From NCBI GenBank assembly GCA_964244895.1, contig CAXTKV010000029.1, positions 1 through 20,646 of the forward strand: a stretch of DNA of 20,646 bases. Direction: 5' to 3'. Origin of the DNA: an uncultured Deinococcales bacterium. Lineage in GTDB: Bacteria > Deinococcota > Deinococci > Deinococcales > JAAFIG01. Shown here in pieces: positions 4,589 to 19,456 of this stretch (position 1 is its first letter; every line of letters starts with the position of its first letter). The notes below the pieces were generated by a model. The model was given only the letters and a program-made list of their open reading frames with translations. It had not been told where the DNA came from and made no database searches. Position numbers and translations under genes: made by a program.

Positions 4589-4636
4589 GAACACCGTCCT
4601 GCACGCATATCTAAATTCGTGTGCAGGACGGTGTTC
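4589..4636. repeat. 48-bp dyad element, copy A (16-bp perfect arms)
   Basis: GAACACCGTCCTGCAC-16 nt-GTGCAGGACGGTGTTC. CTCGAG abuts the left end (4584-4589). Confidence 0.92.
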
Positions 4637-4669
4637 CTTGAACTCACCACTCAAACCTCATCACTTCCT

Positions 4670-5866
4670 TCACGCCAGCGCCAACGGCAAGCAACTCGGG
4701 CCGATCGGCTCGAAGCTTTTATAAGTCAGCACGAACTCGCGGTGCCCGAGCGATTCGGAAGCGGTCTTCTCGCCTTCGGCGGTGCGCCGAATCCGTTCGA
4801 TGATCTCGAGCCCGACCTCGTCGAGCGTGCCGTTACCTTCCAGAATCCGTCCGGCGTTGACATCCATGTCGTCACTCATGCGGCGGTAGGTTTCCGGGTT
4901 GCCGCAGACCTTGATGACGGGGCTGATGGCGCTGCCGACGACGCTGCCGCGACCCGTGGTGAACAGGATCACGTGCGAGCCGCAGGCGATCAACTCGCCG
5001 ATCTCTGCGGTGTCGTTGATGTTCGGAAAGCCGAAGCGCACCTCACCGTCCGGGATCACGTCCAGCAGGTACAAGCCGGGTTGGGGCGGCACATCGCCGG
5101 GTTTGATGATGCCGTGCAGCGGCCCGTGACCCGCCTTGGCGTAGGCGCCCAACGATTTTTCTTCCAGGGTGGTCAGGCCGCCTTCGGCGTTGCCGACCGC
5201 GAAGCTGCCGTGCCCGAGCGTGTCGTAGTAGCGCGCGGTCTTGTCCATGCAACTTAAAATTTCCTGACCCAATTCCGGCGTGATGGCGCGGCGCACCATG
5301 TCCTGCTCGCAGCCGATCAGCTCGCCGGTTTCCTCGAAGATCGCGGTCGCGCCCAGTTGCACCAGGCGGTCGAAGGCGTTCCCGACCGCCGGGTTCGCGC
5401 TGATGCCGCTCGTACCATCCGAACCGCCGCAGACGGTACCGACGATCAGTTCGCTGATGGCCATCTCGACGCGCGGCACGCGCTCGAGCTCAGCCAGGGT
5501 TTCTCTGATCCACTCGCGGCCCGCGTCGAAGGTCTTGCGCGTACCGCCCGTCTGCTGAATCACCAGCGTCTCTATCGGGCGACCACTGGCGCGCACCGTC
5601 TCTGCGAGCCTGCTGCGGTTGAAGCTCTCGCAGCCCAGGCTGACCAGCAGCACCGCGCCGACGTTCGGGTGCGTGCAGAGCGATTCCATCATCTCGAGGG
5701 CGTAGGTGTTCGGGTAGCAGCCGCTGAAGCCGATGACGTGAACATCGTCGTCCTCGAAGGGCGCAGCGATCTGCGCGGCGACGTGGTGCGCGCATTCCAC
5801 CAGGTACGCAACCAACGTGACGTTGCGAATGCCTTTCTTGCCGTCCTGGCGCAGATACGCTCTCAT
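4670..5866 (-). CDS. UxaA/GarD-family sugar-acid dehydratase, large (beta) subunit
   Basis: 'DGKKGIRN', 'HPNVGAVLLVSLGCE', 'CGGSDGTSGISANPAVG', 'ETGELIGCE', 'GGLTTLEEKSLG', 'FTTGRGS', 'PVIKV', 'DMDVNAG'. TGATG-coupled to the upstream SAF gene. Confidence 0.9.
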   Translation of the reverse strand: MRAYLRQDGKKGIRNVTLVAYLVECAHHVAAQIAAPFEDDDVHVIGFSGCYPNTYALEMMESLCTHPNVGAVLLVSLGCESFNRSRLAETVRASGRPIETLVIQQTGGTRKTFDAGREWIRETLAELERVPRVEMAISELIVGTVCGGSDGTSGISANPAVGNAFDRLVQLGATAIFEETGELIGCEQDMVRRAITPELGQEILSCMDKTARYYDTLGHGSFAVGNAEGGLTTLEEKSLGAYAKAGHGPLHGIIKPGDVPPQPGLYLLDVIPDGEVRFGFPNINDTAEIGELIACGSHVILFTTGRGSVVGSAISPVIKVCGNPETYRRMSDDMDVNAGRILEGNGTLDEVGLEIIERIRRTAEGEKTASESLGHREFVLTYKSFEPIGPSCLPLALA

Positions 5867-6171
5867 CAGTGGCCTCCTTCGCCGGGTCGTCCGAAGCTGG
5901 GGATGTAATCGCTTTGCAGGTTGTGCGTGTGAACGTGATCACCGGGTTGAATCGCGCTCGTGCTGGAACCGATCGGCATGCCGAATTTAACGATTTTCTC
6001 GCCCGCCTCGAGCGCACGCGCCGCGACCTTGTGCCCGAAAGGAATGGTTTTGGTGGCCGTCACCTGGATTCCTTCGACCTGCAGAATCTGGCCTTCGGTG
6101 ATGGCCTTGACCACCACCAGCACGTTGTCTTTCGGTGAGAGCCTCAAAAGGTGCGGATTTGAATGCTGCAC
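5866..6171 (-). CDS. UxaA-family dehydratase small (alpha) subunit, SAF domain
   Basis: 'DNVLV', 'IPFGHKVA', 'GEKIVKFGMPIG', 'GDHVHTHNL'. AGGAGG lies 8 nt upstream of the GTG. Confidence 0.9.
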   Translation of the reverse strand: MQHSNPHLLRLSPKDNVLVVVKAITEGQILQVEGIQVTATKTIPFGHKVAARALEAGEKIVKFGMPIGSSTSAIQPGDHVHTHNLQSDYIPSFGRPGEGGH

Positions 6172-6174
6172 GGT

Positions 6175-7023
6175 TCACGCCTCCTGTGGGTCTAAATCGA
6201 GTCGGTAGACGCGCACCGCGTTGTCTGACCAGAAGGCTCGAGCATCGGGTTCCGGGAGCGCACCCACGGCTTCGCGCACGATTTCCAGCGTGCGCTGGTA
6301 CGGCGCAGCCAGGGTGCTGACGGGCCAGTCGCCGCCGAACAGCGCGCGGTTCGTGGAAAAAAGACTGAAACCAAAATCGATCGTCTCGCGCAACAATTCC
6401 AGGTCGGGTGCGCCGCTAAAACCCGTCAACAAACCGGAAACCTTGCAGGTCAGATTCGGCAGCGCCGCCAGCCGCGCGATGTCGGCGCGCCACCCCTCGA
6501 GATCGCCATTGAACGGCGGATTGCCCATGTGATCGAGCACGAACGCCACGCGCGGGTGGGCCGCGATCACGTCGAAAACCATCTCGAGTTGATCGGCGCG
6601 CAAGACCAGGTCGACGCTCAGCCCGTGATCGGCCACGGTCTCGAGCCCGGCCTGCACGTCCTTGCGCGTCAACCAGTTCTGGTCAGTGATCGCGTGCGTC
6701 AGGTGGCGCACGCCCTTGAATCTGGGGTCTCGAGAGGCGCGCGTCATTTGCGATTCGAGGTCGGGTGCGGTCAAGTCGAGCCAGCCGACGATTCCGCGAA
6801 TCCACGGGTACGGGCGCGTCGCGTTCAGAATCCAGTCGTTTTCCCTGGGGTCGTGCCCGACCTGCACGTAGACGCCGTGTGTGACGCCAGCTTCGACGCG
6901 TTGCGGCTCGAGTTCGTCCGGCATGAAGGCGCGCCGCAGGGCTTCGGGTTCGGATGGCTTCAGCCAGAAGTAATCGAGCGCGGCGGGGTTCCAGAAGTGA
7001 ACGTGCGTGTCGACGATTCGCAT
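6175..7023 (-). CDS. Amidohydrolase-superfamily sugar lactonase (L-fuconolactonase-like)
   Basis: 'IVDTHVHFW', 'KGVRH', 'VLDHMGNP', 'CKVSGL', 'FGGDWPV', 'NAVRVYRL'. GAAGGA RBS upstream of ATG. First gene of the operon. Confidence 0.85.
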   Translation of the reverse strand: MRIVDTHVHFWNPAALDYFWLKPSEPEALRRAFMPDELEPQRVEAGVTHGVYVQVGHDPRENDWILNATRPYPWIRGIVGWLDLTAPDLESQMTRASRDPRFKGVRHLTHAITDQNWLTRKDVQAGLETVADHGLSVDLVLRADQLEMVFDVIAAHPRVAFVLDHMGNPPFNGDLEGWRADIARLAALPNLTCKVSGLLTGFSGAPDLELLRETIDFGFSLFSTNRALFGGDWPVSTLAAPYQRTLEIVREAVGALPEPDARAFWSDNAVRVYRLDLDPQEA

Positions 7024-7099
7024 CAGCGGTTCCTTCGGGCGTTCGACCGAATTCGGGATGGCGTTGTTTTGAGCTGAGGGTGCAGCCTGGATGGTTCAA

Positions 7100-7129
7100 A
7101 ATTTATCATACAACTTGAGCGGCTGTCAA
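7100..7129 (-). promoter_or_regulatory. Putative sigma70 promoter of the catabolic operon, with an operator in its spacer
   Basis: Minus strand reads TTGACA (7129-7124), 18 nt, then TGn-TAAATT (7105-7100). The spacer contains the TCATACAACT box (7106-7115). Confidence 0.65.
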
Positions 7130-7260
7130 GATTTTGAATTCGCACCAGGCTCGAGCATCCCAGAAAGGCGCAATCTGAGGTGGGGTATCCCAAAGACAGA
7201 TCTGATTTCTCGAATTGACACCTGAAAATACCGTTCAGAGCGCAATTTATCGAGTTTGAT

Positions 7261-7283
7261 GAATACTGTTCCAGACGGTCTTT
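7261..7283. repeat. Degenerate 23-bp half unit of the dyad element
   Basis: GAATACTGTTCCAGACGGTCTTT matches GAACACCGTCC-N-GGACGGTGTTC with 6 mismatches. A left-arm-like AAATACCGTTC lies at 7226-7236. Confidence 0.45.
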
Positions 7284-7347
7284 CGGTTCGGAAAATTCTG
7301 CTCGAGCTCGAATCTGCGCACCGCTCAAGCGTTTCATCGATCAGAAT

Positions 7348-7370
7348 AAGTCATACAACTATGCTACGCT
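7348..7370 (+). promoter_or_regulatory. Putative GntR-family operator and extended -10 upstream of the regulator gene
   Basis: AAGTCATACAACT is near-palindromic (GT-N6-AC); its TCATACAACT (7351-7360) is identical to 7106-7115. It is followed by TG-C-TACGCT (7362-7370). Confidence 0.55.
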
Positions 7371-7405
7371 GAACGCATCCCGATACGTCCATTTGAGGAA
7401 CCACC

Positions 7406-8125
7406 TTGACCGCGCCCAACCCGCAACCCAGGATTCCCGCATCGCAGACCGTGGCGCAAAACGTCATCAGGTTGATCCAGGAATCTGGCCTCAAAACGGG
7501 CGATCGCCTGCCGACCGAAAAGGAATTGACCGAACGCTACGGCGTCAGCCGCACCGTCGTCCGCGAAGCCATCAAGGTGCTGTCCGCTACCGGACTGGTC
7601 GAAACGCGGCGCGGCAGCGGCACGTACGTCAGCGATCACACCGGCATCCCGATCACGACCGCCATTAACCTGTCCATGCTGATCAACCCCGAACACGTCT
7701 CGAGGTTGCTCGAGTTCCGTACCGTGATCGAAACGCAGACCGCACAGATGGCCGCCGAACGCATCACGCCACCCGAACTGCGCGTCCTGCGCGAGATTCT
7801 GGATCACAACGCGCGTTGCGCGACAGCGGGTGATATTGCCGGATTTCTGGCCAGCGACGGCAGTTTCCACAAACGCATCGCGGAAGCCACCCGAAACCCG
7901 TTCCTGGTCACGACCGTGCAGGGCATCTTCCGCTTTCAGCACGACGCGGTGGACAAAATCATCGGCCTGCCGGGATCTCAACGACAGGGCGCGGACGAAC
8001 ACCGCGCGATCCTCGAAGCCATCCGCGACGGCGAGCCCGAACGCGCCGCTTCAGCCATGCGCACCCACCTCGAGAACGTCACCGTGAGTTATCACCGAGC
8101 CGTTCAGGAACGCCTCAAACCCTGA
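7406..8125 (+). CDS. GntR-family transcriptional regulator, FadR subfamily (wHTH + FCD)
   Basis: 'GDRLPTEKELTERYGVSRTVVREAIKVL', 'GSGTYV', FCD motifs 'LEFRTVIE', 'DGSFHKRIAEATRNP', 'EHRAILEAI', 'MRTHL'. TTG start with GAGGA RBS. Divergent from the catabolic operon. Confidence 0.93.
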   Translation: MTAPNPQPRIPASQTVAQNVIRLIQESGLKTGDRLPTEKELTERYGVSRTVVREAIKVLSATGLVETRRGSGTYVSDHTGIPITTAINLSMLINPEHVSRLLEFRTVIETQTAQMAAERITPPELRVLREILDHNARCATAGDIAGFLASDGSFHKRIAEATRNPFLVTTVQGIFRFQHDAVDKIIGLPGSQRQGADEHRAILEAIRDGEPERAASAMRTHLENVTVSYHRAVQERLKP

Positions 8126-8126
8126 A

Positions 8127-8174
8127 CGGCACCGTCCACGACGCGCACAAAATCAGGCGTCGTAGACGGTGTTC
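8127..8174. repeat. 48-bp dyad element, copy C, between convergent gntR and alkA
   Basis: CGGCACCGTCCACGACGC-12 nt-GCGTCGTAGACGGTGTTC. It starts 2 nt after the gntR stop. Confidence 0.88.
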
Positions 8175-8184
8175 CTGAAACCTT

Positions 8185-9042
8185 TCAGGCGAAATACTTG
8201 ATGCGCCAGATCAGGTAGTAGTACGCCCAACCGCGCACTGCCCCCAGGCGTTCGCCCCAATCCTCCAGGCCATCCAGCGTGCCGTAAGCGCGTTTGTAGG
8301 CGCTGGCCAGTCCCGCATCGCCGTAGGCCAGGCTGTCCAGCCGACCCACGCTCGCCAGCCAGTAGCGCGCCGTCCAGTGCCCCACGCCGCGCAACGCCAC
8401 CAGATGCACCAGGGCTTCAGGTAAAGGCATCTCGAGCACGCCCGCAAAGTACCCATCCAGGAGCGCTCGCGCGACTGTCTTCAGGTATTCGGTTTTGCGC
8501 CGGGAAACCTTGCAGGCCAAGAGGATTTCCGGGTCGGCCTCCAGGATCGCTTCCGGCGAAGGGTGCAGCGGGAAAAGGTGGCTCGAGCCATCAGCGAGCG
8601 CGCCCTCGACTTCGCCACCGTACCGCCGCGACACCATACCGATCTGCTGCAGGCAAAATTGCAGCGTGATCTGCTGACCCAGGATCGCCGCGACCCAGGC
8701 TTCCCAGGCGTCCATCAACGGCGGTCGCAAGCCGGAAAGCGCCTCGCTCGCGTTCCTCAAAATCGGATCGTCAAACGCCGCCTCAATCCACGGTCGCGGA
8801 TCGAGATCGAGCCCGAACGAGAGCCGCGCCCATTCCTGGGCTTCCGGGGAATCATCAGAAATCTCCAGGCCGTCCGGGGCGGGTCTGACCGCCACCACGC
8901 GCGGGCCACTCGAGGTCAGCAAGGCGCGTTGGTGCAGGTTGTTGACGGCATCGAAGCGCTCCAGGGCGTTGTGTTCGGGCAAGCGCGCCAGAACGCTGGC
9001 GGTCAACGGAAACGAAAACGGTGTCTGGGTTTTCAGGCGCAC
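8185..9042 (-). CDS. alkA: DNA-3-methyladenine glycosylase II (AlkA, HhH-GPD superfamily)
   Basis: 'GLRPP', 'EAWVAAILGQQIT', 'PSPEAI', HhH motif 'LVALRGVGHWTA', catalytic Asp in 'YGDAGL'. Confidence 0.85.
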   Translation of the reverse strand: MRLKTQTPFSFPLTASVLARLPEHNALERFDAVNNLHQRALLTSSGPRVVAVRPAPDGLEISDDSPEAQEWARLSFGLDLDPRPWIEAAFDDPILRNASEALSGLRPPLMDAWEAWVAAILGQQITLQFCLQQIGMVSRRYGGEVEGALADGSSHLFPLHPSPEAILEADPEILLACKVSRRKTEYLKTVARALLDGYFAGVLEMPLPEALVHLVALRGVGHWTARYWLASVGRLDSLAYGDAGLASAYKRAYGTLDGLEDWGERLGAVRGWAYYYLIWRIKYFA

Positions 9043-9049
9043 GCGAAAG

Positions 9050-9055
9050 AGTCTA
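9050..9055 (-). promoter_or_regulatory. Putative -10 box giving a leaderless alkA transcript
   Basis: Minus strand reads TAGACT-ctttcgc-GTG, a TANNNT box 7 nt from the start codon, with no Shine-Dalgarno sequence between them. Confidence 0.55.
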
Positions 9056-9132
9056 CCCTCGAGCCATCGTGCCCGAGAGCGCCTGGAAGAACCCTCAACC
9101 CGGCGCTCCAGAGGCTACGCGAGCCGGGGCGC

Positions 9133-9624
9133 TCAGGCGCTGACTTCCTGTTTCGGTTCGCGTTTGAGCCAGGCCTGCCAGTCCCAGATGCTTTTGAGAA
9201 TCTTGACGACCTGGATCATGTCGCAACTCAGCACGCCGTCCACGGCGGGCAGGGTCTGGGTGATGAAATCGTAGAGTTCGTCGTTTGAAAAGTGCAAACT
9301 CTCGACCACGATGTCCGCCGGGCCCATGCCCAACCCGACGAAGCGCACGTTCTCGAATTGCGCGATGGTTCTGGCCGCCGCCTCGGCCTTGCGCGGTTCG
9401 GTCTTGACCAGGGTCACGGCATCCACCTTGACGCCGAGCTTGGTCGGATCGCCGGTCAGCGCGACCTGAAACGCACCGGCGCGAACCATCGCGTTGTAGC
9501 GCCGTCGGATCGTGCCCTCCGAGACTTCCAAACGGCGGGCCATCTCGCGGAAGGCCATGCGACCGTCCTCCTGGAGCAGGCTGATGATCCGGTGGTCGAG
9601 TGTATCCATCGTGTTCACGTACAC
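9133..9624 (-). CDS. Lrp/AsnC-family transcriptional regulator
   Basis: 'LDHRIISLLQEDGRMAFREMARRLEVSEGTIRRR' HTH plus a RAM-type C-terminal domain. Start GTG 9624 (GAGG upstream) or ATG 9609. Confidence 0.92.
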   Translation of the reverse strand: MYVNTMDTLDHRIISLLQEDGRMAFREMARRLEVSEGTIRRRYNAMVRAGAFQVALTGDPTKLGVKVDAVTLVKTEPRKAEAAARTIAQFENVRFVGLGMGPADIVVESLHFSNDELYDFITQTLPAVDGVLSCDMIQVVKILKSIWDWQAWLKREPKQEVSA

Positions 9625-9699
9625 GTAGTCCGCACCTCGATTTGTGACGCAATGCGTAAAGTTTGCGTCAATGTATCACGCAATTGCGAGATAGAGCAA

Positions 9700-9729
9700 T
9701 TGACAAGCGGCTGTGCGCGTGATTAATCT
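9700..9729 (+). promoter_or_regulatory. Putative sigma70 promoter for the hydrolase/ABC operon
   Basis: TTGACA (9700-9705), 18 nt, TAATCT (9724-9729). Confidence 0.55.
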
Positions 9730-9885
9730 TGCACCAGCAGGTGCAAGCGCACCTCCCGGCGCGGCGTCCGTTCATCGGTTCGGATTCTCAGGGGTTCCAG
9801 GTGGTCACAGTTGTCTCGAGCAGCGCTCCCAGGCGGAGTTGATGCCCGAGACCTCGAGCGATTTTTGAGAAACTTGGGGGAACCG

Positions 9886-10713
9886 ATGCCAGTCGCGCAA
9901 TTGAACGGAACCGAGTTGTATTACGTCAGGCACGGTCGTGGCATTCCTTGCCTGGTCATGCACGGCGGGTTGGGGTGCGACCACACCTACATGCACCCGT
10001 GGATGGACGCGCTCGGGGACACCTTCGAGATGGTCTATTACGATCATCGGGGCAACGGGCGCTCCGGGCGACCAGCGATCGAAACGCTCAACTTCGAGCA
10101 GTTCGCCGCCGACGCGGACGCGCTGCGGGCGCACCTGGGCTTCGAGAAAGTTGCGGTCATCGGCAGTTCTTACGGCGGGTTCATCGCGCAAGAATATGCA
10201 ATCCGTTACCCGGATCGCGTGCTGGCGCTGTTCCCGATGGACACTGCGCCCGTCTTCGATTACGCGGATGAAGTCAAGATGCACGCGCTCAGAAAGGGCG
10301 CGACCCCGCAGATGATCGAGGTGCTGGATTCGCTGTCGCCCGAAACCGACGAGGATTTCGCGGGCATGATGGATCTGATCGGGCCGCTGTACTACTACCG
10401 TTTTGATCCAGAACTGGCGTCAAAAGCCATGGGTCAGACCGTTTACTCGGCTTCAGCCGCGCGGCAGGGCTTCGAGATTCTGAAAAGTTGGGACACCAGA
10501 CCGCGACTGGGCGCGCTGCGCATGCCGACGCTGGTGCTGGTCGGGCGCGACGATTACATCACGCCGCCGAACAAGTCCGAAGACATCCAGCGCCACATCC
10601 CGGACGCGGAACTCAGGATCTTCGAGCAATCCGGCCACATGCCCTTTCTCGAGGAACCCGAAGCGTTTTTTGATTCCATCCGCGAGTTCGTGAATCGCCG
10701 CGTCGGGGCGTGA
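9886..10713 (+). CDS. Alpha/beta-fold hydrolase (proline iminopeptidase/esterase-like)
   Basis: 'MHGGLG' oxyanion loop, 'YDHRGNGRS', nucleophile elbow 'GSSYGG', acid in 'GRDD', His in 'SGHMP'. ATG 9886 follows a GGGGG RBS. Confidence 0.88.
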   Translation: MPVAQLNGTELYYVRHGRGIPCLVMHGGLGCDHTYMHPWMDALGDTFEMVYYDHRGNGRSGRPAIETLNFEQFAADADALRAHLGFEKVAVIGSSYGGFIAQEYAIRYPDRVLALFPMDTAPVFDYADEVKMHALRKGATPQMIEVLDSLSPETDEDFAGMMDLIGPLYYYRFDPELASKAMGQTVYSASAARQGFEILKSWDTRPRLGALRMPTLVLVGRDDYITPPNKSEDIQRHIPDAELRIFEQSGHMPFLEEPEAFFDSIREFVNRRVGA

Positions 10714-10740
10714 CGACTGCGCGATTTCTGGAATTTTACT

Positions 10741-10788
10741 GAATACCGTCCAGCATGCACCTCAAGAACGCTGTCCCAGACGGTGCAT
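10741..10788. repeat. 48-bp dyad element, copy D
   Basis: GAATACCGTCCAGCATG...TGTCCCAGACGGTGCAT, with central CTCAAG. Confidence 0.8.
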
Positions 10789-10900
10789 TTCAAACGATAC
10801 CCATCCAAGGTTCAGCATTTGGCTCGAGGAGGTGAGGTTCACAACGGCAGCGAGGGTGCAAAACGCGACCTTGAACGTTCACGGGTGAAGGGGGTTCGGC

Positions 10901-12418: not shown

Positions 12419-12422
12419 TAAA

Positions 12423-12471
12423 AAGCACCGTCCCGGACAGTGTTCCAAGCACCTCGTCCGGGACGGTGTTC
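12423..12471. repeat. Dyad element, copy E (49 bp), visibly two 23-bp palindromic units
   Basis: AAGCACCGTCCCGGACAGTGTTC-CAA-GCACCTCGTCCGGGACGGTGTTC, running into CTCGAG (12471-12476). It begins 5 nt after the binding-protein stop. Confidence 0.92.
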
Positions 12472-12515
12472 TCGAGGGATCGTGCGATAGATTCCTCGAG
12501 GCTGAGGGGACTCGC

Positions 12516-12563
12516 GCACACCGTCTCGCACGCACATTCGAGTCACCACCCAGCGCGGTGTTC
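12516..12563. repeat. 48-bp dyad element, copy F
   Basis: GCACACCGTCTCGCACG...CCAGCGCGGTGTTC. Confidence 0.75.
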
Positions 12564-12581
12564 CGCTCAGAAAGTCTCGAG

Positions 12582-13526
12582 ATGCTGACCTACACCATCA
12601 AACGCCTGATCGCCGTGATCCCGATTCTGTTGGGCATCACCGCCGTGTCGTACTTCCTGACGCGCACCATTCCCGGCGATCTGGTCGCGGTCATGCTGGG
12701 CACGAACACCGACCCGGTGGTGGCGGCGCAATTGCGCCACAAGCTCAACCTGGATCGCCCGATCCTCGAGGGCTACGTCGTCTGGCTGGGGCATCTGGCG
12801 CAGGGCAACCTGGGCGAATCGCTGCGCTCTGGCCGACCGATCGGTGAGGACATGGGCACGCGCTACGGGCGCACGGCGCAACTGACCGTGGCGGCCATGA
12901 TCCTGGCCTTGCTGGTCGGGATTCCTTTGGGGATTCTGGCGGCGGTCAGGCGCAACCGCCCGACCGATCAGACGATCTCGAGCACGGCCCTGCTGGGCGT
13001 GTCCACGCCGGATTTCTGGCTGGCTTTTTTGCTGATATTGGTCTTCGCGGTCTGGCTGCGCTGGTTGCCGCCCGCCGGGTACGCCTCACCTTTTGAAAAG
13101 CCGAATCTTTTCCTGCGCTTGCTGATCCTGCCCGCGCTGACGCTGGGCTTTCAGGTGACGGGCATCCTGACGCGCTTCACCCGATCCGCCATGCTCGAGG
13201 TTTTATCCCAGGATTTCATCCGCACCGCCCGCAGCAAGGGCGTGGCGGAACGCAGCGTGATGTACAAGCACGCCCTGCGGAACGCGCTCGTGCCGATCAC
13301 GACGGTCATCGGGTTGAACGTCGGCTTTCTGCTGGGTGGCACGGTCATCGTGGAAACCATCTTCGGCTGGCCGGGCGTCGGCAGTCTGGCCGTGACCGCC
13401 ATCAACCAGCGCGATTACCCGGTCGTGCAGGCCACCGTGATGCTGTTCGCGTTCACCTTCGTGATGGTCAATTTGATCGTGGATTTGCTGTACGGTGCGA
13501 TCGACCCGAGGATCAGGTACGGATGA
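12582..13526 (+). CDS. ABC transporter permease, DppB/OppB type
   Basis: 'YTIKRL', 'PGD', 'GNLGES', 'TPDFWLA', EAA-loop region 'TRSAMLEVLSQDFIRTARSKG', 'HALRNAL', 'RDYPVVQ', 'DPRIR'. Confidence 0.93.
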   Translation: MLTYTIKRLIAVIPILLGITAVSYFLTRTIPGDLVAVMLGTNTDPVVAAQLRHKLNLDRPILEGYVVWLGHLAQGNLGESLRSGRPIGEDMGTRYGRTAQLTVAAMILALLVGIPLGILAAVRRNRPTDQTISSTALLGVSTPDFWLAFLLILVFAVWLRWLPPAGYASPFEKPNLFLRLLILPALTLGFQVTGILTRFTRSAMLEVLSQDFIRTARSKGVAERSVMYKHALRNALVPITTVIGLNVGFLLGGTVIVETIFGWPGVGSLAVTAINQRDYPVVQATVMLFAFTFVMVNLIVDLLYGAIDPRIRYG

Positions 13527-13559
13527 AAGGACTCGGGCAGATCGCGGTTGATACTCGAG

Positions 13560-13607
13560 AAACAACGTCTGGAACGGCACTCGAGCTTCGCGTCCCAGAC
13601 GGTTCTT
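13560..13607. repeat. 48-bp dyad element, copy G
   Basis: AAACAACGTCTGGAACG...CGTCCCAGACGGTTCTT. CTCGAG lies immediately left (13554-13559) and near the centre (13580-13585). Confidence 0.8.
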
Positions 13608-13716
13608 TTCGCTTCACAGAACGTGCTCGAGCGAGATTCGTTCGATAGATTGATGCTCGATCCAGACGCCGACGGCTACAATGCTCGCGTCCCGAAAACC
13701 CTGAGGTTGACTGCGC

Positions 13717-14598
13717 ATGACGACGACCGCGACCACCGTGACCACCGCCGCCACCTCGAGCGAGCCAAAGCGCAGGAAACTCCCGCGCGTGCTGCGCCAG
13801 CGCTCATTCGTGCTGGGCGCGATCCTGATCGGCTTGATGGCCCTGTGCGCCGTGTTCGCGCCCCTGATCGCGCCGCACGATCCGGTGGAACAGAACTTCG
13901 ACAGCACCCTGCAAGCGCCCACAGCACATTTCTTGCTCGGCACGGACATGTTCGGGCGCGATCAGCTTTCGCGGATCATCTACGGCGCGCGGATTTCTTT
14001 CATGGTCGGATTCATCTCGGTCGGGATCGCGCTGATCGCGGGCGGGTTGCTCGGCCTGATCGCGGCCTATTCCAGGGGTTGGCTGGACAACCTGATCATG
14101 CGCGTCATGGACGTGCTGCTGGCCTTCCCGTTCTTGCTTTTGGCCATCGCCATCATGGCGTCTTTCGGCACGAACCTGGCCAACGCGATGATCGCCATCG
14201 GCATCGTCTACACGCCCAGTTTTGCGCGCGTCACCCGCGCCGCGACGCTCAGCGTGATGGAGCAGGGTTTCGTCGAAGCGACCCAGGCGCTCGGCTCGAG
14301 CCCCGCGCGCTTGATGCTCCGGCACGTCCTGCCGAACATCACCGGGCCGTTGATCGTGCAGACGACGCTGTCGCTGGCCTTCGCGATTCTGGCGGAGGCG
14401 GCGCTGTCGTTCCTGGGCCTGGGCACGCAACCGCCCACGCCATCGTGGGGACTGATGCTCAACGAGGGGCGCGGCTTTTTCAACACCGCGCCGTGGCTGG
14501 CGATCTTTCCGGGCGTGGCGATCACGCTGGCCGTGCTGGGGTTCAATTTGCTGGGCGACGGTCTGCGCGACGCGCTCGATCCGAGGTTGCGCGACTGA
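13717..14598 (+). CDS. ABC transporter permease, DppC/OppC type
   Basis: 'LGTDMFGRDQLSRIIYGARIS', 'FVEATQALG', 'RHVLPN', 'AEAALSFLGLG', 'PSWGLML', 'FNLLGDGLRDALDPR'. Confidence 0.93.
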   Translation: MTTTATTVTTAATSSEPKRRKLPRVLRQRSFVLGAILIGLMALCAVFAPLIAPHDPVEQNFDSTLQAPTAHFLLGTDMFGRDQLSRIIYGARISFMVGFISVGIALIAGGLLGLIAAYSRGWLDNLIMRVMDVLLAFPFLLLAIAIMASFGTNLANAMIAIGIVYTPSFARVTRAATLSVMEQGFVEATQALGSSPARLMLRHVLPNITGPLIVQTTLSLAFAILAEAALSFLGLGTQPPTPSWGLMLNEGRGFFNTAPWLAIFPGVAITLAVLGFNLLGDGLRDALDPRLRD

Positions 14599-14613
14599 TG
14601 CGTGATGCTCGAG

Positions 14614-14661
14614 AAACACCGTTGGAGACGCAGTTTATAAACAGCGTGCGGGGCGGTGTCG
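14614..14661. repeat. 48-bp dyad element, copy H
   Basis: AAACACCGTTGGAGACG...CGTGCGGGGCGGTGTCG. CTCGAG lies immediately left (14608-14613). Confidence 0.75.
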
Positions 14662-14726
14662 CCTCGCAATGAACGCTTAAGCTACACGAAGATTTTCGGC
14701 TCTGCTCGAGCCTTCCGGGGGAAACC

Positions 14727-16196
14727 GTGACCGCAAAACGCAGCGCGAAAACAACAGAATTCAGACTGATCGAAGCGACGTTCACCGACATACAAAAAGC
14801 GATGGAGGGCGGCCAGATCACCTCGCGGCAACTGACGCAGATGTACCTGGAACGCATAGAGGCGCTCAACCGAAGCGGCCCTCAACTGCGCGGCGTGATC
14901 GAGACGAACCCGGATGCCCTGAAAATTGCGGATGCGCTCGACCGGGAACGCAAAGCCAACGGGGCTCGAGGCGCACTGCACGGCCTGCCGATCCTGGTCA
15001 AGGACAACATCGACACCTTTGACCGGATGCACACCAGCGCGGGTTCGCTGGCATTGGCGAAGTCCATCGCGCCCAGGGATTCGACCGTGGCCGCCGGGTT
15101 GCGGGCGTCCGGCGCGGTGATTCTGGGCAAGGCCAACATGACCGAATGGGCGAACTTCATGACGGTCGGCATGGAGAACGGCTACAGCTCGCGCGGCGGG
15201 CAGGGCGTTAACCCGTACAAACCGGGGCTGGACACGGGCGGCTCGAGTTCCGGTTCCGGCATTTCTGTCGCGGCCAATTTGTGCGCGGGTGCGATCGGCA
15301 CGGAGACTTCGGGCTCGATCCTCAGCCCATCCAATCAGAATTCCGTGGTGGGCATCAAACCGACCGTGGGCTTGGTCTCTCGGGGCGGCGTGATTCCCGT
15401 CTCCAGCACGCAGGACACGCCGGGGCCGATGACGCGCACGGTGCGGGACGCGGCGATTTTGTTGAACGCCATCGCCGGGAAAGATCGGCGCGACCCCGCG
15501 ACCCGAGACGCGCGCATCGCGGACGATTACACCGCCTTCCTGGATCCGGACGGATTGAAGGGCGCGCGCATCGGTGTGCCCAGGGACGTGTACTGGACGG
15601 GTTTGCCGCCTGACCAGGCGAGAATTGTGGAGCGCGCCATCCAGACGATTCAAGCCTGCGGCGCGACCGTGATCGACCCCGCCGAGATTGAAACCGCACA
15701 GGAAGCCGCGCAGTTCCATTTTGAAGTGCTGCTCTACGATTTTAAGCGCGACATCAACCGCTACCTCAAAACCCTCGGGCCAGACGCGCCGATCAAGAAC
15801 CTGAAGGAACTGATCGCGTACAACGAAGCCAGCCCCGAGAAAATGTTGCGCTACGGGCAGTTGATTCTTCAGGCCGCGCAAGCCACCAGCGGCACACTGA
15901 CCGAAAAAATTTACGCCTACCGCCGCGCTCAGGATTTGCGCCTTTCAAAACGCGATGGGATCGATGCGACCATCAAAAAGCACCGTCTGGACGCGCTGCT
16001 GTTCCCGATCTACATGGGTTACGCCATCGCCGCGCGGCCCGGCTACCCCAGCGTGATCGTTCCGGCGGGTTACACCGCCGACAACACGCCCGTCGGCGTG
16101 AGCTTCACGGCTCAGGCCTGGGCCGAACCCGCGCTGATCCGCTTCGCTTACGCCTTCGAGCAGGCCACCAAGGCCAGACGCGCACCGCCAATCTGA
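14727..16196 (+). CDS. Amidase signature (AS) family amidase
   Basis: Lys in 'LHGLPILVKDNIDT', 'GKANMTEWAN', 'GGSSSGS', 'GTETSGSILSPS' (Ser-cisSer-Lys triad), 'GIKPTVGLVSR', 'QDTPGPM', 'AYAFEQAT'. GTG start after GGGG. Confidence 0.92.
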   Translation: MTAKRSAKTTEFRLIEATFTDIQKAMEGGQITSRQLTQMYLERIEALNRSGPQLRGVIETNPDALKIADALDRERKANGARGALHGLPILVKDNIDTFDRMHTSAGSLALAKSIAPRDSTVAAGLRASGAVILGKANMTEWANFMTVGMENGYSSRGGQGVNPYKPGLDTGGSSSGSGISVAANLCAGAIGTETSGSILSPSNQNSVVGIKPTVGLVSRGGVIPVSSTQDTPGPMTRTVRDAAILLNAIAGKDRRDPATRDARIADDYTAFLDPDGLKGARIGVPRDVYWTGLPPDQARIVERAIQTIQACGATVIDPAEIETAQEAAQFHFEVLLYDFKRDINRYLKTLGPDAPIKNLKELIAYNEASPEKMLRYGQLILQAAQATSGTLTEKIYAYRRAQDLRLSKRDGIDATIKKHRLDALLFPIYMGYAIAARPGYPSVIVPAGYTADNTPVGVSFTAQAWAEPALIRFAYAFEQATKARRAPPI

Positions 16197-16211
16197 AGCC
16201 CGTCAAATCTG

Positions 16212-16259
16212 GAACACCGCGCTGGACGCGTTTCAAGAACATCGTCCTGGACGGTATTC
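16212..16259. repeat. 48-bp dyad element, copy I, between convergent operons
   Basis: GAACACCGCGCTGGACGCGTTTC-AA-GAACATCGTCCTGGACGGTATTC (23+2+23). Confidence 0.88.
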
Positions 16260-16390
16260 TTGAATAAAAGATCTTCGAGGCAAGTCTCGGAGTATTCACG
16301 ACCAGAAGTCGCACCCTCGAGAAGACTGAAGGGCTCGAGTTCTAACCGAGAAAAAGCCAGGCGAGCCTCGGGGAATGCACCCTCAGAGAT

Positions 16391-17428
16391 TCAGGCCACC
16401 TGCGGCATCGGCGCGAGTTCCGCGATCAGCTTGCCCTCCACGTACACCAGCGCGCGTCTGACGCGCAATCCTCGTTCCGCCCTGGCATCGCGCGGCGCGA
16501 AGACCGTCAGCGCGTGTTCACCGGCGCGCACGCGCAACGACTGGTAATGCCCCAGGTCGGTCATCGTCTCGAGCGCCACGGGCGCGCCGCCGGGCGCAAA
16601 TTCCAGGTCTTCGGGCCGCACCGCCAGGATCGCCGCACCGTCCGGTACGCCGGGCGCGGGCAACCTGAACGGCCCAGCCTCGAGCGTGCCGCCCGAAACG
16701 CGCCCGGGTATCACGTTCATCGAACCGATGAACTCCGCCACGAACAGCGTCGCGGGGTGCAGGTACAGTTCAGATGGGCTGGCGGCCTGGTGCAGCACGC
16801 CGTCGCTCATGACCGCGATGCGATCGGATACGGCCAGGGCTTCTTCCTGATCGTGGGTCACGAAGACGGTCGTGATGCCCAGCGTGCGCTGAATGGCGCG
16901 AATTTCCTCGCGCAAATTGACCCGCAAGCGCGCATCCAGGCTCGAGAGCGGCTCGTCCAGCAGCAGCACCTTCGGTTCGACCACCAGCGCCCGCGCGAGC
17001 GCCACGCGCTGCTGCTGCCCGCCGGAAAGCTGGTGCGGCAGGCGCTGCTCGAAGCCCGGCAATCCGACCAGTTCCAGCATCCGTCCGACGCGCTCGCGGG
17101 TCATACGCGCATCCGTGCGGCGTAATTTCAGACCGAAGGCGACGTTGTGAAAGATGTTCATGTGCGGCCAGAGCGTGTAGCGCTGAAAGACCATCGCGGT
17201 CGGTCTCGCCTCCGGCCCGAGCGCGATCACGCTCGAATCACCGATGCGGATATCGCCCGCGTCCGGCGAAATGAAGCCCGCCAGCAAGCGCAAGCTGGTC
17301 GTCTTGCCGCAACCGGACGGCCCCAGCAGGCTGACCAACTCGCCGCTCGAGACGATCAGGTTCAGGTTGTCCACGGCGGGTTTAGAGCCGTACCGTTTGG
17401 TGATGTTCTCGAAGATGATTTCAGCCAT
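16391..17428 (-). CDS. ABC transporter ATP-binding protein (PotA/MalK-like, C-terminal TOBE-like domain)
   Basis: Walker A 'GPSGCGKT', signature 'LSGGQQQR', Walker B 'LLLDEP', H-loop 'VTHDQEEA'. Confidence 0.95.
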   Translation of the reverse strand: MAEIIFENITKRYGSKPAVDNLNLIVSSGELVSLLGPSGCGKTTSLRLLAGFISPDAGDIRIGDSSVIALGPEARPTAMVFQRYTLWPHMNIFHNVAFGLKLRRTDARMTRERVGRMLELVGLPGFEQRLPHQLSGGQQQRVALARALVVEPKVLLLDEPLSSLDARLRVNLREEIRAIQRTLGITTVFVTHDQEEALAVSDRIAVMSDGVLHQAASPSELYLHPATLFVAEFIGSMNVIPGRVSGGTLEAGPFRLPAPGVPDGAAILAVRPEDLEFAPGGAPVALETMTDLGHYQSLRVRAGEHALTVFAPRDARAERGLRVRRALVYVEGKLIAELAPMPQVA

Positions 17429-17430
17429 GT

Positions 17431-18258
17431 CTATCCTTTGAATCCCGCCGCCAGGTAACCCGAAAGCAAGAAGCGCCGCGCGAACACGAGCAGCACCACG
17501 CTCGGGATCGTCAGCAGCACGCTAAAAATTGCGCCGACCGGTTCGGGGTAATTGTTGACCAGCGTGTACATCTGCACCGGCATGGTCACGATGTTCGGCG
17601 CGCCGACGATCAAGGTCGCCTGCGCCTCGTCGAGCGCGCCCAGGAAAGTCAGGATGCAGGCCACGATCACACCGGGCATGGCGATGGGTAACGTCACCGT
17701 GAAAAACACGCGCAGCGGGCTGGCACCCAGGTCGCGGGCGGCCTCCTCGAGTTCGCGCGGCACGCTGGAAAAGCTCGCGGCGGGAATCCAGGTCATCGTC
17801 ACCAAGGAATTGATCAACTGCACGAAAACCACGCCCCAGAAGGTGCCGATCAGCCCGAGCTGAAAGAACACGGTCGCGATGGCGATGTAGAGCCCCAATT
17901 TCGGGAAGGCGTTCGAGGCCAGCAGGGAAACGTACAAGAAGCGTTTGAACGGAAACTCGAACCGAGAGAACGCGTAAGCGGCGGGCAGGCAGATCAGCGC
18001 GGACAAGAGCATCACCATCGGCGCGGTCGTGAAGCTCCAGTAGGCCGCTTTTGAAAGATTCGTGTTCTCGAGAATCCAGCCCCACCATTTGAAACCGAAT
18101 TCTTGCGGGATCAGCGCGGGCGGGAACCACTTGGCCGCGAACGCCCACAACCCCAGCGTCACGAGCGGCAGCAGCAAAAACGCGGCCAGCGCCACCACCA
18201 CGATCAGCGTGATCGAACGCCCCATCGCCGGGTTTCGCAGGAACCAGTCGTAGCGCAT
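17431..18258 (-). CDS. ABC transporter permease (PotC-like)
   Basis: Several hydrophobic segments and the EAA motif 'LEEAARDLGASP'. Start ATG 18258 or GTG 18261; the track start at 18300 lies within repeat J. Confidence 0.88.
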   Translation of the reverse strand: MRYDWFLRNPAMGRSITLIVVVALAAFLLLPLVTLGLWAFAAKWFPPALIPQEFGFKWWGWILENTNLSKAAYWSFTTAPMVMLLSALICLPAAYAFSRFEFPFKRFLYVSLLASNAFPKLGLYIAIATVFFQLGLIGTFWGVVFVQLINSLVTMTWIPAASFSSVPRELEEAARDLGASPLRVFFTVTLPIAMPGVIVACILTFLGALDEAQATLIVGAPNIVTMPVQMYTLVNNYPEPVGAIFSVLLTIPSVVLLVFARRFLLSGYLAAGFKG

Positions 18259-18294
18259 CACGCGACCCCGACGTTTCTGGAGGCCGCACCGTAG

Positions 18295-18342
18295 GAACAC
18301 CGTCTAGCATGCACTCTCGAGAATACGTCCAGGACGGCGCTC
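18295..18342. repeat. 48-bp dyad element, copy J
   Basis: GAACACCGTCTAGCATG...CGTCCAGGACGGCGCTC, with CTCGAG exactly at the centre (18316-18321). Confidence 0.85.
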
Positions 18343-18484
18343 CCGAGAATGCTCGAGCCATCTGCGCACTCGCATGGGTCGTGCAGGAACGAACGTCGTA
18401 CTTCAGCACGTTGCACGTGAGGTGTTCGCCCTCGGGCGGGAACGACCGCTCGAGATTTCGCCTGTAAGACTCGAGCCCGATCCA

Positions 18485-19405
18485 TCACGTCCTCCGGTTG
18501 CGCGTGGTCGCCCAGACGTACAAACTGCCCGCGACGGCGCAGGCGGCGAAGCTGATGACGGCCATCACGATCGCGGTTTGCGGTTGGCGGAACGCGCCGA
18601 AGTTCAGTTCCATGGCCACGCCCAGCATCTGCGGTGCGCTCGGGCCGAGCATGTACGGCACGGTGTAACTGCCGAACACGCCGATGAAGCCGAAGGTCGC
18701 CACGATCAGCGTCGGAGTGATGTTCAACGGCGCGATGATCCGCCAGAAGAGCGTCCAGGCGTTCGCGCCCTGATCGCGGGCGGCCTCCAGACTCTCGTTG
18801 GACACGCCCTCGAGTCCGCTCGAGATCATCAGCACCGCGAAGGGAATCCCGACCCAGACGTGACCCAGCACGATGCCCGCCTCCTGGCGGATGATGGATC
18901 TGTACGGGATGTGCGCCACGCCCAGGATGCTCTCGAGCCAGCCCTTGTCGCCAAAAAACGTGATCAGCGCGTAGGTAGCGATGATCGTCGGAACGAACAT
19001 GGGCAGTAAATACAGGTTCCGCACGGCGCTGGCCAGCCCGCCGCGCCCGAAGCGGGCGGACAGCGCCAGCGGGTAGCTGACGAGCAACAAGAGCGCCACG
19101 CTGATGAACGACACGCGCAGCGTCAGCGCGAAGTTGCCCGCGAAGGCTGGTGTGGCGAAGAGTTTCTGGAATGGCTCGAGCGTGGGCGTACTGGAACGGA
19201 TCACGCCCAGGCCGTTGGCGTAAGCCGGGTTGTCTTCCGGCACCAGCCCGAGCGAGAAGCGCAGCGCTTCGAAGGCGGGAATGACCACCAGCAGCACCAG
19301 CACGAAGATCGGTGGAAGCACCAGAAGGAGCCCCGTGACGGGCTCCTTCCAGCGCGACGCGCGCCGTACTCGGGCGGGTTGTAGAACAGGAAAGGTCTGG
19401 CTCAC
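18485..19405 (-). CDS. ABC transporter permease (PotB-like)
   Basis: Hydrophobic segments, 'YPLAL', 'LPMFVP', EAA motif 'LEAARDQGAN'. GTG 19405 has GAGAGG 8 nt upstream. Confidence 0.88.
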   Translation of the reverse strand: MSQTFPVLQPARVRRASRWKEPVTGLLLVLPPIFVLVLLVVIPAFEALRFSLGLVPEDNPAYANGLGVIRSSTPTLEPFQKLFATPAFAGNFALTLRVSFISVALLLLVSYPLALSARFGRGGLASAVRNLYLLPMFVPTIIATYALITFFGDKGWLESILGVAHIPYRSIIRQEAGIVLGHVWVGIPFAVLMISSGLEGVSNESLEAARDQGANAWTLFWRIIAPLNITPTLIVATFGFIGVFGSYTVPYMLGPSAPQMLGVAMELNFGAFRQPQTAIVMAVISFAACAVAGSLYVWATTRNRRT

Positions 19406-19433
19406 GCAGTCGGCCTCTCGCTCGAGATTCACA

Positions 19434-19456
19434 GAACATCGTCTGGAGCGGTGTTC
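19434..19456. repeat. Stand-alone 23-bp half unit of the dyad element, overlapping the binding-protein stop codon
   Basis: GAACATCGTCTGGAGCGGTGTTC. On the minus strand the stop TGA runs directly into GAACACCG. Confidence 0.75.

What the first reader, a model, noticed from the sequence alone, without database searches (positions are those of the whole stretch)
4589..19456. Dispersed fixed-length 48-bp dyad element in most intergenic gaps: a REP-like or protein-binding repeat family I do not recognise
Seen: nine copies at 4589-4636, 8127-8174, 10741-10788, 12423-12471 (49 bp), 12516-12563, 13560-13607, 14614-14661, 16212-16259 and 18295-18342 align to GAACACCGTC-N4-ACG-N14-CGT-N4-GACGGTGTTC. 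Eight are exactly 48 bp despite heavy divergence of the N positions. All are intergenic, within or between unrelated operons, including both convergent junctions, at about one per 2 kb. Length and specific bases are conserved, while the N4 blocks often fail to pair between arms (D, H, J). Inference: this fits a double-stranded site read by a symmetric protein with fixed spacing (nucleoid organiser, recombinase- or transposase-type end) better than a plain terminator, and there are no consistent U-tracts. Established analogues are enterobacterial REP/BIME with RAYT and Deinococcus small non-coding repeats. This element lacks the GTAG/CGTC terminal tetranucleotide of classical REPs, although CGTC occurs internally. 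No cognate mobilising gene is in the window.
Basis: partly seen in the sequence, partly recalled or inferred. Interest (0 to 1): 0.85.

Follow-up and report, generated by a model that had tools for sequence, protein, structure and literature searches.

The report
Evenly spaced paired palindromic DNA tags
An uncultured Deinococcus relative carries about 2,000 pairs of a 23-base palindrome, spread evenly through its genome and even written into protein-coding genes, which likely serve as docking sites for an unknown DNA-binding protein and may tag the cell's own DNA much as the uptake sequences of Neisseria do.

Summary
Real, and larger than reported. The unit is a 23-bp pseudo-palindrome, GAACACCGTC-YNR-(G/C)ACG(GTGTTC). 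The genome holds about 5,440 units (reversed-genome control 134), most of them in 2,007 pairs or triplets. The family was near-absent from 60 related genomes, but related species keep it at orthologous sites, with arms conserved and spacers scrambled. There is almost no base-pair covariation, no G-U bias, no target duplication and no RAYT, so it is not a terminator or a typical REPIN. Sites repel one another over about 1.4 kb, are scarce in accessory DNA, and arise inside genes without gaps. This matches DUS/USS uptake sequences except in shape. Against pure in-place origin: occupied gaps are longer than in relatives, and some copying is seen. The core also sits in the ends of an IS1031-like clade. 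The binding protein was not found. This scan noted the family before on another piece of this genome and called it an ordinary REP; my tests partly contradict that.

The parts
4589..4636 (.). Pair, 25-bp spacing (units 4589-4611 and 4614-4636); strongest copy in the window
   Evidence: (65 bits)
7226..7283 (.).
8127..8174 (.). Pair, 25-bp spacing, convergent gap (GntR / HhH-GPD glycosylase)
10741..10788 (.). Pair, 25-bp spacing, right unit weak
12423..12471 (.). Pair, 26-bp spacing (49 bp), just after the stop codon of the peptide-binding protein gene
12516..12563 (.). Pair, 25-bp spacing, right unit decayed
13560..13607 (.). Pair, 25-bp spacing, both units weak; between the two permease genes
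14614..14661 (.). Pair, 25-bp spacing
15583..15605 (.). Marginal single unit (9.2 bits) inside the amidase gene; may be chance
16212..16259 (.). Pair, 25-bp spacing, convergent gap (amidase / ABC ATPase)
18295..18342 (.). Pair, 25-bp spacing
19434..19456 (.). Lone unit; one contig of run X1 has an extra unit here between two CTCGAG sites, making a 35-bp pair
   Evidence: (table 5c)

Best explanation
The element is a pair of 23-bp palindromic sites that is likely bound on double-stranded DNA by two cooperating dimers of an unidentified host protein, and it is likely kept at about one pair per 1.7 kb because one site per DNA fragment would suffice, most plausibly as a self-DNA tag for uptake and recombination in the manner of DUS/USS. 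Shown by calls: the unit, the discrete spacings, the lack of pairing covariation, even spacing with mutual repulsion over about 1.4 kb, scarcity in accessory DNA, conservation at orthologous sites, and gap-free origin inside genes. Inferred: that a protein reads it (about 0.75 for this layer alone); that inner half-sites are relaxed because neighbouring dimers stabilise each other; that units are gained and lost by short indels between CTCGAG microhomologies and by occasional copying between sites, then sorted by biased uptake or repair. Untested: competence, uptake preference and the identity of the receptor.
For: Geometry: neighbour distances peak at 25 (889), 26 (149), 30-31 (53), 35 (579), 36 (215) and 41-42 (40), with 0-2 at 28, 32, 38 and 44; the 31 pairs at 40-42 bp have unrelated spacers by inspection. 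Sequence rather than pairing: in 557 pairs at 35 bp, observed arm pairing equals the value expected from base frequencies; on the sense strand of 369 pairs at 25 bp, G-U 455 vs A-C 485; no target duplication. 94 copies with at most one arm mismatch have 91 different spacers. Three of three metagenome contigs of related species keep the pair at the orthologous place: arms 90 of 108 identical, middles 14 of 56. Saturation: of 2,361 gaps, 1,562 hold one site and 115 hold two or more (null 803 and 415); occupancy rises from 0.32 to 0.82 with distance to the next site; neighbouring gaps exclude each other across short genes (odds ratio 0.46, p=0.003; 0.51, p=0.006) but not across genes of 1.4 kb or more (1.16). 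Inside genes: 68 units at 20 bits or more vs 2-6 in synonymous controls; rate rises from 0.3 to 12 per 100 kb with distance from an intergenic site; 14 of 19 align with family orthologues without gaps; pairs in NuoG, PheT, FadB and MiaA and a unit in AlaRS replace residues in place. 20 of 207 contigs over 9 kb (387 kb) hold only 10 pairs; five of the element-poor contigs were annotated and carry CRISPR-Cas, BREX, eCIS, a Rep protein and sugar-use genes. DUS/USS share the density (0.8-0.9 per kb; here 1.06 units per kb), even spread, non-insertional origin and absence from acquired DNA (PMC2817400, PMC2397512, passages). ComEC and 8 ComEA-like domain matches are present, against 1-5 in 18 relatives.
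Against: Known uptake sequences are short and not palindromic (PMC2817400); symmetric, cooperative, phase-locked sites look more like targets of a cytoplasmic dimer (own knowledge). Only 31 of 1,869 main-class pairs are inside genes, against 35-65% for DUS/USS. Occupied gaps are a median 88 bp longer than orthologous gaps in relatives (n=20) vs 0 for empty gaps (n=31), so intergenic copies came with added DNA, although occupied gaps must be long by definition. Near-identical copies exceed a half-swap control (32 vs 16+/-6 within two mismatches), and arm positions 12/37 and 14/35 covary weakly in the 25-bp class. Motif-coded peptides were not enriched over relatives in 279 orthologue pairs. In genes of 2.1 kb or more the in-gene excess does not rise with distance. 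The core is conserved in IS ends of relatives that lack the genome-wide family, which uptake does not explain. No receptor was identified.
Confidence: 0.35

Rival explanations
1. Sequence-specific chromosome architecture or topology site: a cytoplasmic dimeric protein binds the pairs, bridges them or loads a topoisomerase or SMC-type factor, and one site per gene-sized domain is enough. IS1031-like elements would use the same protein to bring their ends together.
For: Dyad symmetry and half-turn spacing steps; kb-range saturation; highest occupancy in convergent gaps, 451 of 552; core at a fixed offset in 26 of 26 distinct IS or MITE ends with the same degeneracy, and a second unit 40-41 bp inward in several MITE ends.
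Against: Stretches of 26-56 kb carry 0-1 pairs, so the sites are not essential everywhere. Selection on one of thousands of redundant sites seems too weak to change housekeeping proteins (inference). The one candidate examined, a family-wide basic 159-aa protein, has no site upstream in 10 of 10 loci.
Confidence: 0.27
2. REP/REPIN-like selfish repeat spread long ago by a single-strand transposase that is now lost or unassembled, and later co-opted. This is the reading of the earlier scan report.
For: Inverted doublets just after stop codons; discrete spacings and unique spacers are also reported for REPINs (PMC3337134); gaps with elements gained DNA; slight excess of near-identical copies with sharp 48-bp borders; the genome's GTAG REPs also lack a RAYT in the assembly, so that absence is weak evidence.
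Against: REPIN spacers form hairpins (PMC3337134); here inner positions 19-21 pair less than expected. No GTAG or terminal CGTC tag. RAYT-like genes in relatives are flanked by GTAG REPs; no strong unit or pair lies in 13 of 13 Y1 loci (best 12 bits). Insertion does not explain gap-free pairs inside genes or repulsion between sites.
Confidence: 0.22
3. The unit is the inner binding site of an IS1031-like (IS5 family) transposase. The host amplified it as a decoy or immunity mark, or domesticated the transposase's DNA-binding domain.
For: After a search pattern that ended at ...GAATTNGT, the next eight bases of 26 distinct ends read S20, Y25, N, R24, (G15/A7), A25, C24, R24 of 26, matching the unit core. 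These IS and MITE copies are 43-47% GC, so not recent exports from this 63% GC host. One IS end in the genome runs straight into a unit.
Against: The pairs lack the terminal AGAGCCTGTTTG and any target duplication. DUF4096 gave four hits, all at IS remnants. In 29 more distant relatives only some IS ends could be located, and those did not carry the core at this offset. The link was first met through a motif search with chance-level counts, and the ends are homologous, so not independent.
Confidence: 0.1
4. Bidirectional terminator or mRNA-stabilising hairpin.
For: Median 17-27 bp from the upstream stop codon; 7 of 11 window copies fold better than all 200 shuffles.
Against: No G-U bias, no covariation in the 35/36 classes, T-runs downstream no commoner than A-runs upstream in the 25-bp class (0.12 vs 0.10); 321 of 615 divergent gaps are occupied; no Rfam match above a gathering score. 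A secondary role for the best-paired copies is possible.
Confidence: 0.04

Closest known systems
Neisseria DUS and Pasteurellaceae USS (PMC2397512, PMC2817400)
   Same: About one per kb; composite spacing 1.7 kb here vs about 1.5 kb; more even than random; under-represented in genes yet present there by substitution at tolerant positions; scarce in acquired DNA; lineage-specific; inverted pairs after stop codons.
   Different: 23-bp palindromic unit instead of a 9-12-bp non-palindromic core; pairing at half-turn steps; 98% of pairs outside genes; no U-tract; no uptake data and no receptor.
REP/REPIN/BIME with RAYT (PMC3337134, PMC3733652)
   Same: Hundreds to thousands of short inverted doublets in intergenic DNA, near 3' ends, with discrete spacer lengths and unique spacers; they serve as targets for other mobile units.
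   Different: No GTAG or CGTC end tag, spacer not a hairpin, no RAYT link, arms conserved by base identity rather than pairing, in-place origin in genes, mutual repulsion. The genome has a separate GTAG REP family (57 loci).
IS5 family, IS1031-like elements and their MITEs
   Same: The 11-bp core and relaxed half-sites occur at offset 10 of the ends of one clade in this bacterial family.
   Different: The genomic pairs have no IS terminus and no target duplication.
Paired operator boxes of cooperative repressors (TyrR, NagC, lambda CI; recalled, not from a call)
   Same: Strong and weak half-sites, helical-phase spacing, A/T-rich linker.
   Different: Thousands of sites, mostly downstream of genes, with no regulon logic.
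Deinococcus radiodurans small non-coding repeats (PMC1978522, passages)
   Same: Species-restricted intergenic repeats in the same order.
   Different: 295 mosaic repeats of at least nine types; the 48-bp pattern had no match in 11 genomes of genus g7, which I take to be Deinococcus by inference. SNR sequences were not compared directly.

Membership tests
DUS/USS uptake sequences | Hundreds-fold over-representation, about one per kb | tested here: met
   5,440 units vs 134 control; core 12-mer 1,621 vs 39
DUS/USS uptake sequences | More even spacing than random | tested here: met
DUS/USS uptake sequences | Arise by substitution and recombination, not insertion | tested here: inconclusive
   Met inside genes; intergenic copies came with added DNA
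DUS/USS uptake sequences | Scarce in recently acquired DNA | tested here: met
   acquisition inferred from gene content of five contigs
DUS/USS uptake sequences | Short, non-palindromic core | tested here: not met
   23-bp pseudo-palindrome
DUS/USS uptake sequences | Raises DNA uptake through a surface receptor | not testable with these tools
   ComEC and ComEA-like genes present; no assay
REP/REPIN | Inverted doublet of short palindromes, extragenic | tested here: met
REP/REPIN | Terminal GTAG or CGTC tag outside the stem | tested here: not met
   CGTC is internal (definition from PMC3733652)
REP/REPIN | Spacer forms a hairpin | tested here: not met
REP/REPIN | RAYT gene flanked by the repeat | tested here: not met
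   No Y1 hit in the 91%-complete assembly; no pair in 13 Y1 loci of five relatives
MITE | Terminal inverted repeats of an IS plus target duplication | tested here: not met
MITE | Near-identical copies | tested here: not met
   One identical pair among 869
Intrinsic terminator | Covarying stem and U-tract | tested here: not met
Sequence-specific nucleoid or topology site | Bound in vivo by an architectural protein | not testable with these tools
   No binder found
Sequence-specific nucleoid or topology site | Origin-terminus bias (matS, SlmA or Noc type) | not testable with these tools
   328 unordered contigs

The most novel reading that the evidence does not exclude
A third, independently evolved self-DNA recognition code outside the Neisseriaceae and Pasteurellaceae: a long palindromic, helically phased double site, recruited from or shared with the ends of an IS5-family transposon, whose drive is strong enough to rewrite housekeeping proteins in one Deinococcales genus.
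Probability: 0.25. Interest if true: 0.9.

Novelty: new variant of a known kind. Interest (0 to 1): 0.7.

Why it matters
Genome-wide motifs that spread evenly and overwrite coding sequence are known from few systems, and those motifs are 12 bp or shorter (DUS/USS from the papers read; Chi and HIP1 recalled). A 48-58-bp paired site with the same population signature points to an unknown sequence-specific DNA-binding machine and gives a ready bait for finding it. It also offers a test of whether some repeats filed as REPs are protein-selected signals rather than transposon debris, and a possible route from IS ends to a host signal.

Tried and rejected
Rfam: no gathering-level match; the mir-299 hit (29 vs 67 bits) is a generic hairpin. 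Viral contigs: 0 matches to the pair and one lone palindrome, probably chance; no relative of the IS there. Plasmid and phage BLAST gave only 20-21-bp chance words. No gene family is preferentially flanked by the element; best p=0.0025 before correction. No site upstream of recA in four relatives. The IHF consensus (recalled) is not enriched: 3 of 559 exact. A looser pattern was 1.2-6.5 times its reversed control in five relatives, but Val-x-Asp/His codons can explain that, so I do not count it. Candidate binders from codon bias: a 159-aa basic protein found in 12 of 18 family genomes and an HTH-like protein in an integrated element; no Pfam hit and no link. No RNA holder was listed. Element orientation relative to transcription was weak and inconsistent. 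Literature searches listed no description of this family; that library omits most subscription papers, and ISfinder was not available. No supplements were read.
Full report
Host and data. The window is G000:C29:1-20646 in a 5.12-Mb, 328-contig, 91%-complete assembly with 62.7% GC and 21,883 CTCGAG sites. Its alanyl-tRNA synthetase is closest to unnamed proteins and then to Deinococcus proteins at about 60-65%, so the host is a Deinococcales bacterium. Genes were called with my own codon model, 4,546 genes and 80.6% coding; context counts carry that uncertainty.

Observation. The nine copies are present as described. The profile shows two 23-bp units, GAACACCGTC-YNR-SACG(CRWWTY or GTGTTC), with a conserved outer half and a relaxed inner half. 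A unit scan found 5,440 units at 9 bits or more, against 134 in the reversed genome, in 3,393 clusters: 1,968 pairs, 39 larger groups and 1,386 singles. Neighbour distances are discrete: 25 (889), 26 (149), 30-31 (53), 34-37 (853) and 40-42 (47), with near-empty troughs. The steps are about half a helical turn, and the two main classes differ by one turn. The 40-42 class has unrelated spacers by inspection, so its spacing is not inherited from one master copy. Pairs cover 2.1% of the genome.

Range. The 48-bp pattern gave 625 matches in G000 and one match each in 2 of 60 relatives; the 12-bp core is near control level in 18 of 18 other family genomes. Three metagenome contigs, 74-81% identical to G000, carry the pair at the orthologous position; arms are 90 of 108 identical and middles 14 of 56. 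A second pair in L004 has a different class from the G000 pair near the same gene, so there is turnover. Run X1 holds a relative about 90-93% identical that keeps the 7226-7283 pair and, on one contig, has an extra unit at 19426 between two CTCGAG sites. The family therefore looks genus-level, old and under purifying selection on the arms.

DNA or RNA. Arm pairing equals expectation from base frequencies in the 35 and 36 classes. In the 25 class only positions 12/37 (0.54 vs 0.39), 14/35 (0.58 vs 0.44) and 4/45 (0.79 vs 0.74) exceed it clearly in the arms, while inner positions 19-21 pair less than expected. There is no G-U excess on the sense strand (455 vs 485), no consistent U-tract and no target duplication of 2-8 bp. 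Seven of 11 window copies still fold better than all shuffles, as any inverted repeat would. 94 copies with at most one mismatch in 36 arm positions have 91 different spacers. There is a modest excess of near-identical copies over half-swap controls, so some copying or conversion occurs.

Placement. Only 31 of 1,869 main-class pairs are inside genes. Among gaps of 60 bp or more, 451 of 552 convergent, 1,346 of 2,042 tandem and 321 of 615 divergent gaps are occupied. Twenty of 207 long contigs are almost empty; the five annotated (96 of their proteins) carry accessory functions. In 142 normal-density contigs the mean spacing is 1.74 kb with a coefficient of variation of 0.64. Gaps rarely hold two sites, occupancy rises with distance to the next site, and adjacent gaps exclude each other across genes shorter than about 1.4 kb. 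The benefit or drive is therefore saturating at the kilobase scale.

Inside genes. In 3,018 confident genes, units at 20 bits or more number 68 against 2-6 in five synonymous controls, and the core 666 against 253-332; only the 3-bp centre among eight lengths tested shows a clear excess. In-gene sites concentrate far from intergenic sites; this holds in short and medium genes but not in genes of 2.1 kb or more. Of 145 in-gene units, 19 had a family orthologue in the fetched DNA, and 14 aligned without gaps. Six chosen cases were aligned in depth: NuoG (0-3 residues longer than 11 orthologues), PheT (no gap against 5 of 5), FadB (no gap against 4 of 5), MiaA (5 of 5) and AlaRS show replacement in place; one enzyme on C140 gained 6-8 residues. 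These were picked, not sampled, and a peptide count over 279 orthologue pairs showed no enrichment. Against pure in-place origin, occupied intergenic gaps are a median 88 bp longer than in relatives, with no fixed increment.

Partners. No Y1 transposase was found in G000, although it has a separate GTAG REP family; RAYT-like genes in relatives sit beside GTAG REPs, not units. No paralogue family is preferentially flanked. An IS1031-like IS5 element has five ends in G000, one beside a frameshifted transposase gene. Across 26 distinct ends from this bacterial family, the bases after the search pattern match the unit core, and several MITE ends carry a second unit 40-41 bp inward. IS ends that could be located among 29 more distant relatives lack the core at that offset. 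This suggests one binder for both, either a host protein or the transposase; I could not decide which. A separate 39-bp mobile unit inserts into the core at 44 of its 63 loci and occurs in 17 of 18 family relatives.

Comparison. DUS/USS share density, evenness, substitutional origin, permissive placement and absence from acquired DNA, but are short and non-palindromic (PMC2817400: passages and Introduction read; PMC2397512: passages read). A 2025 review names only Pasteurellaceae and Neisseriaceae for sequence-specific uptake (PMC12378983: passages). REPINs share doublets, discrete spacings and unique spacers, but their spacers form hairpins and they go with RAYTs (PMC3337134: first third read; PMC3733652: first eighth plus passages). 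D. radiodurans SNRs are fewer and mosaic (PMC1978522: passages). Other papers were seen only as search listings. The element fails membership tests for REP/REPIN, MITE and terminator; it behaves like an uptake sequence but is not a member by shape, and the defining assay is missing.

Verdict. A real, genus-level, protein-readable double site under kilobase-range spacing pressure (about 0.75). Uptake or recombination self-tag 0.35, architectural site 0.27, REPIN-like 0.22, transposase-linked 0.10, RNA hairpin 0.04. New variant of a known kind; interest 0.7.

Noticed in passing
G000:C29:31894-32076 and about 60 other loci; L100-L119: A 39-bp hairpin-like mobile unit (starts GCGCGA, ends CAAGAA; stem variants, tandem and nested copies) inserts without an obvious duplication into the 23-bp unit at 44 of 63 loci, and also into IS genes; present in 17 of 18 family relatives. 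Its mobiliser is unknown.
   Followed up: partly
G000:C225:5900-6755; L091, L093, L095, L097, L143: IS1031-like IS5 element and 200-bp MITEs whose ends carry the unit core; at C225 the left end lacks its terminus and abuts a genomic unit.
   Followed up: yes
whole genome and all family relatives sampled: CTCGAG is the commonest hexamer (4.3 per kb here, 4.6-6.7 per kb in eight relatives); it often overlaps element ends, but both-end cases are fewer than expected (8 vs 19), so it is not a duplicated target.
   Followed up: partly
window 2246-2320: A 24-bp in-frame tandem repeat (KYPASLAV, three copies) inside the zinc alcohol dehydrogenase gene.
   Followed up: no
window about 16270-16400: Resembles a separate 132-bp repeat family (five other loci) next to the 16212 pair.
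   Followed up: no
G000: Other repeat families: GTAG REPs (57 loci), CTCCCC..GGGGAG repeats often attached to a pair (28), and a 133-bp family (16).
   Followed up: no
window 7216-7283: A TTGACA hexamer lies 5 bp before the 35-bp pair upstream of the GntR gene, so this pair may overlap a promoter.
   Followed up: no
G000:C258:1094-1573 (L262): Uncharacterised 159-aa basic protein with a KRGRKP tail and high codon bias, found in 12 of 18 family genomes; candidate nucleoid protein with no link to the element.
   Followed up: partly
L220, P0001-P0014: AlaRS in this clade carries a highly variable insertion of roughly 60-100 residues that is absent from the Deinococcus sequence used as reference.
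   Followed up: no
L066 (G007:C526), L064 (G005:C557): Isolated pairs in two relatives: the G007 contig has G000-like GC and four units (misbinned or transferred); the G005 copy sits in DNA of host-like GC.
   Followed up: partly
G000:C225, C240, C206, C179, C115, C39: Eight ComEA-like HhH domain matches, several in secreted proteins with high codon bias, against 1-5 in relatives.
   Followed up: partly
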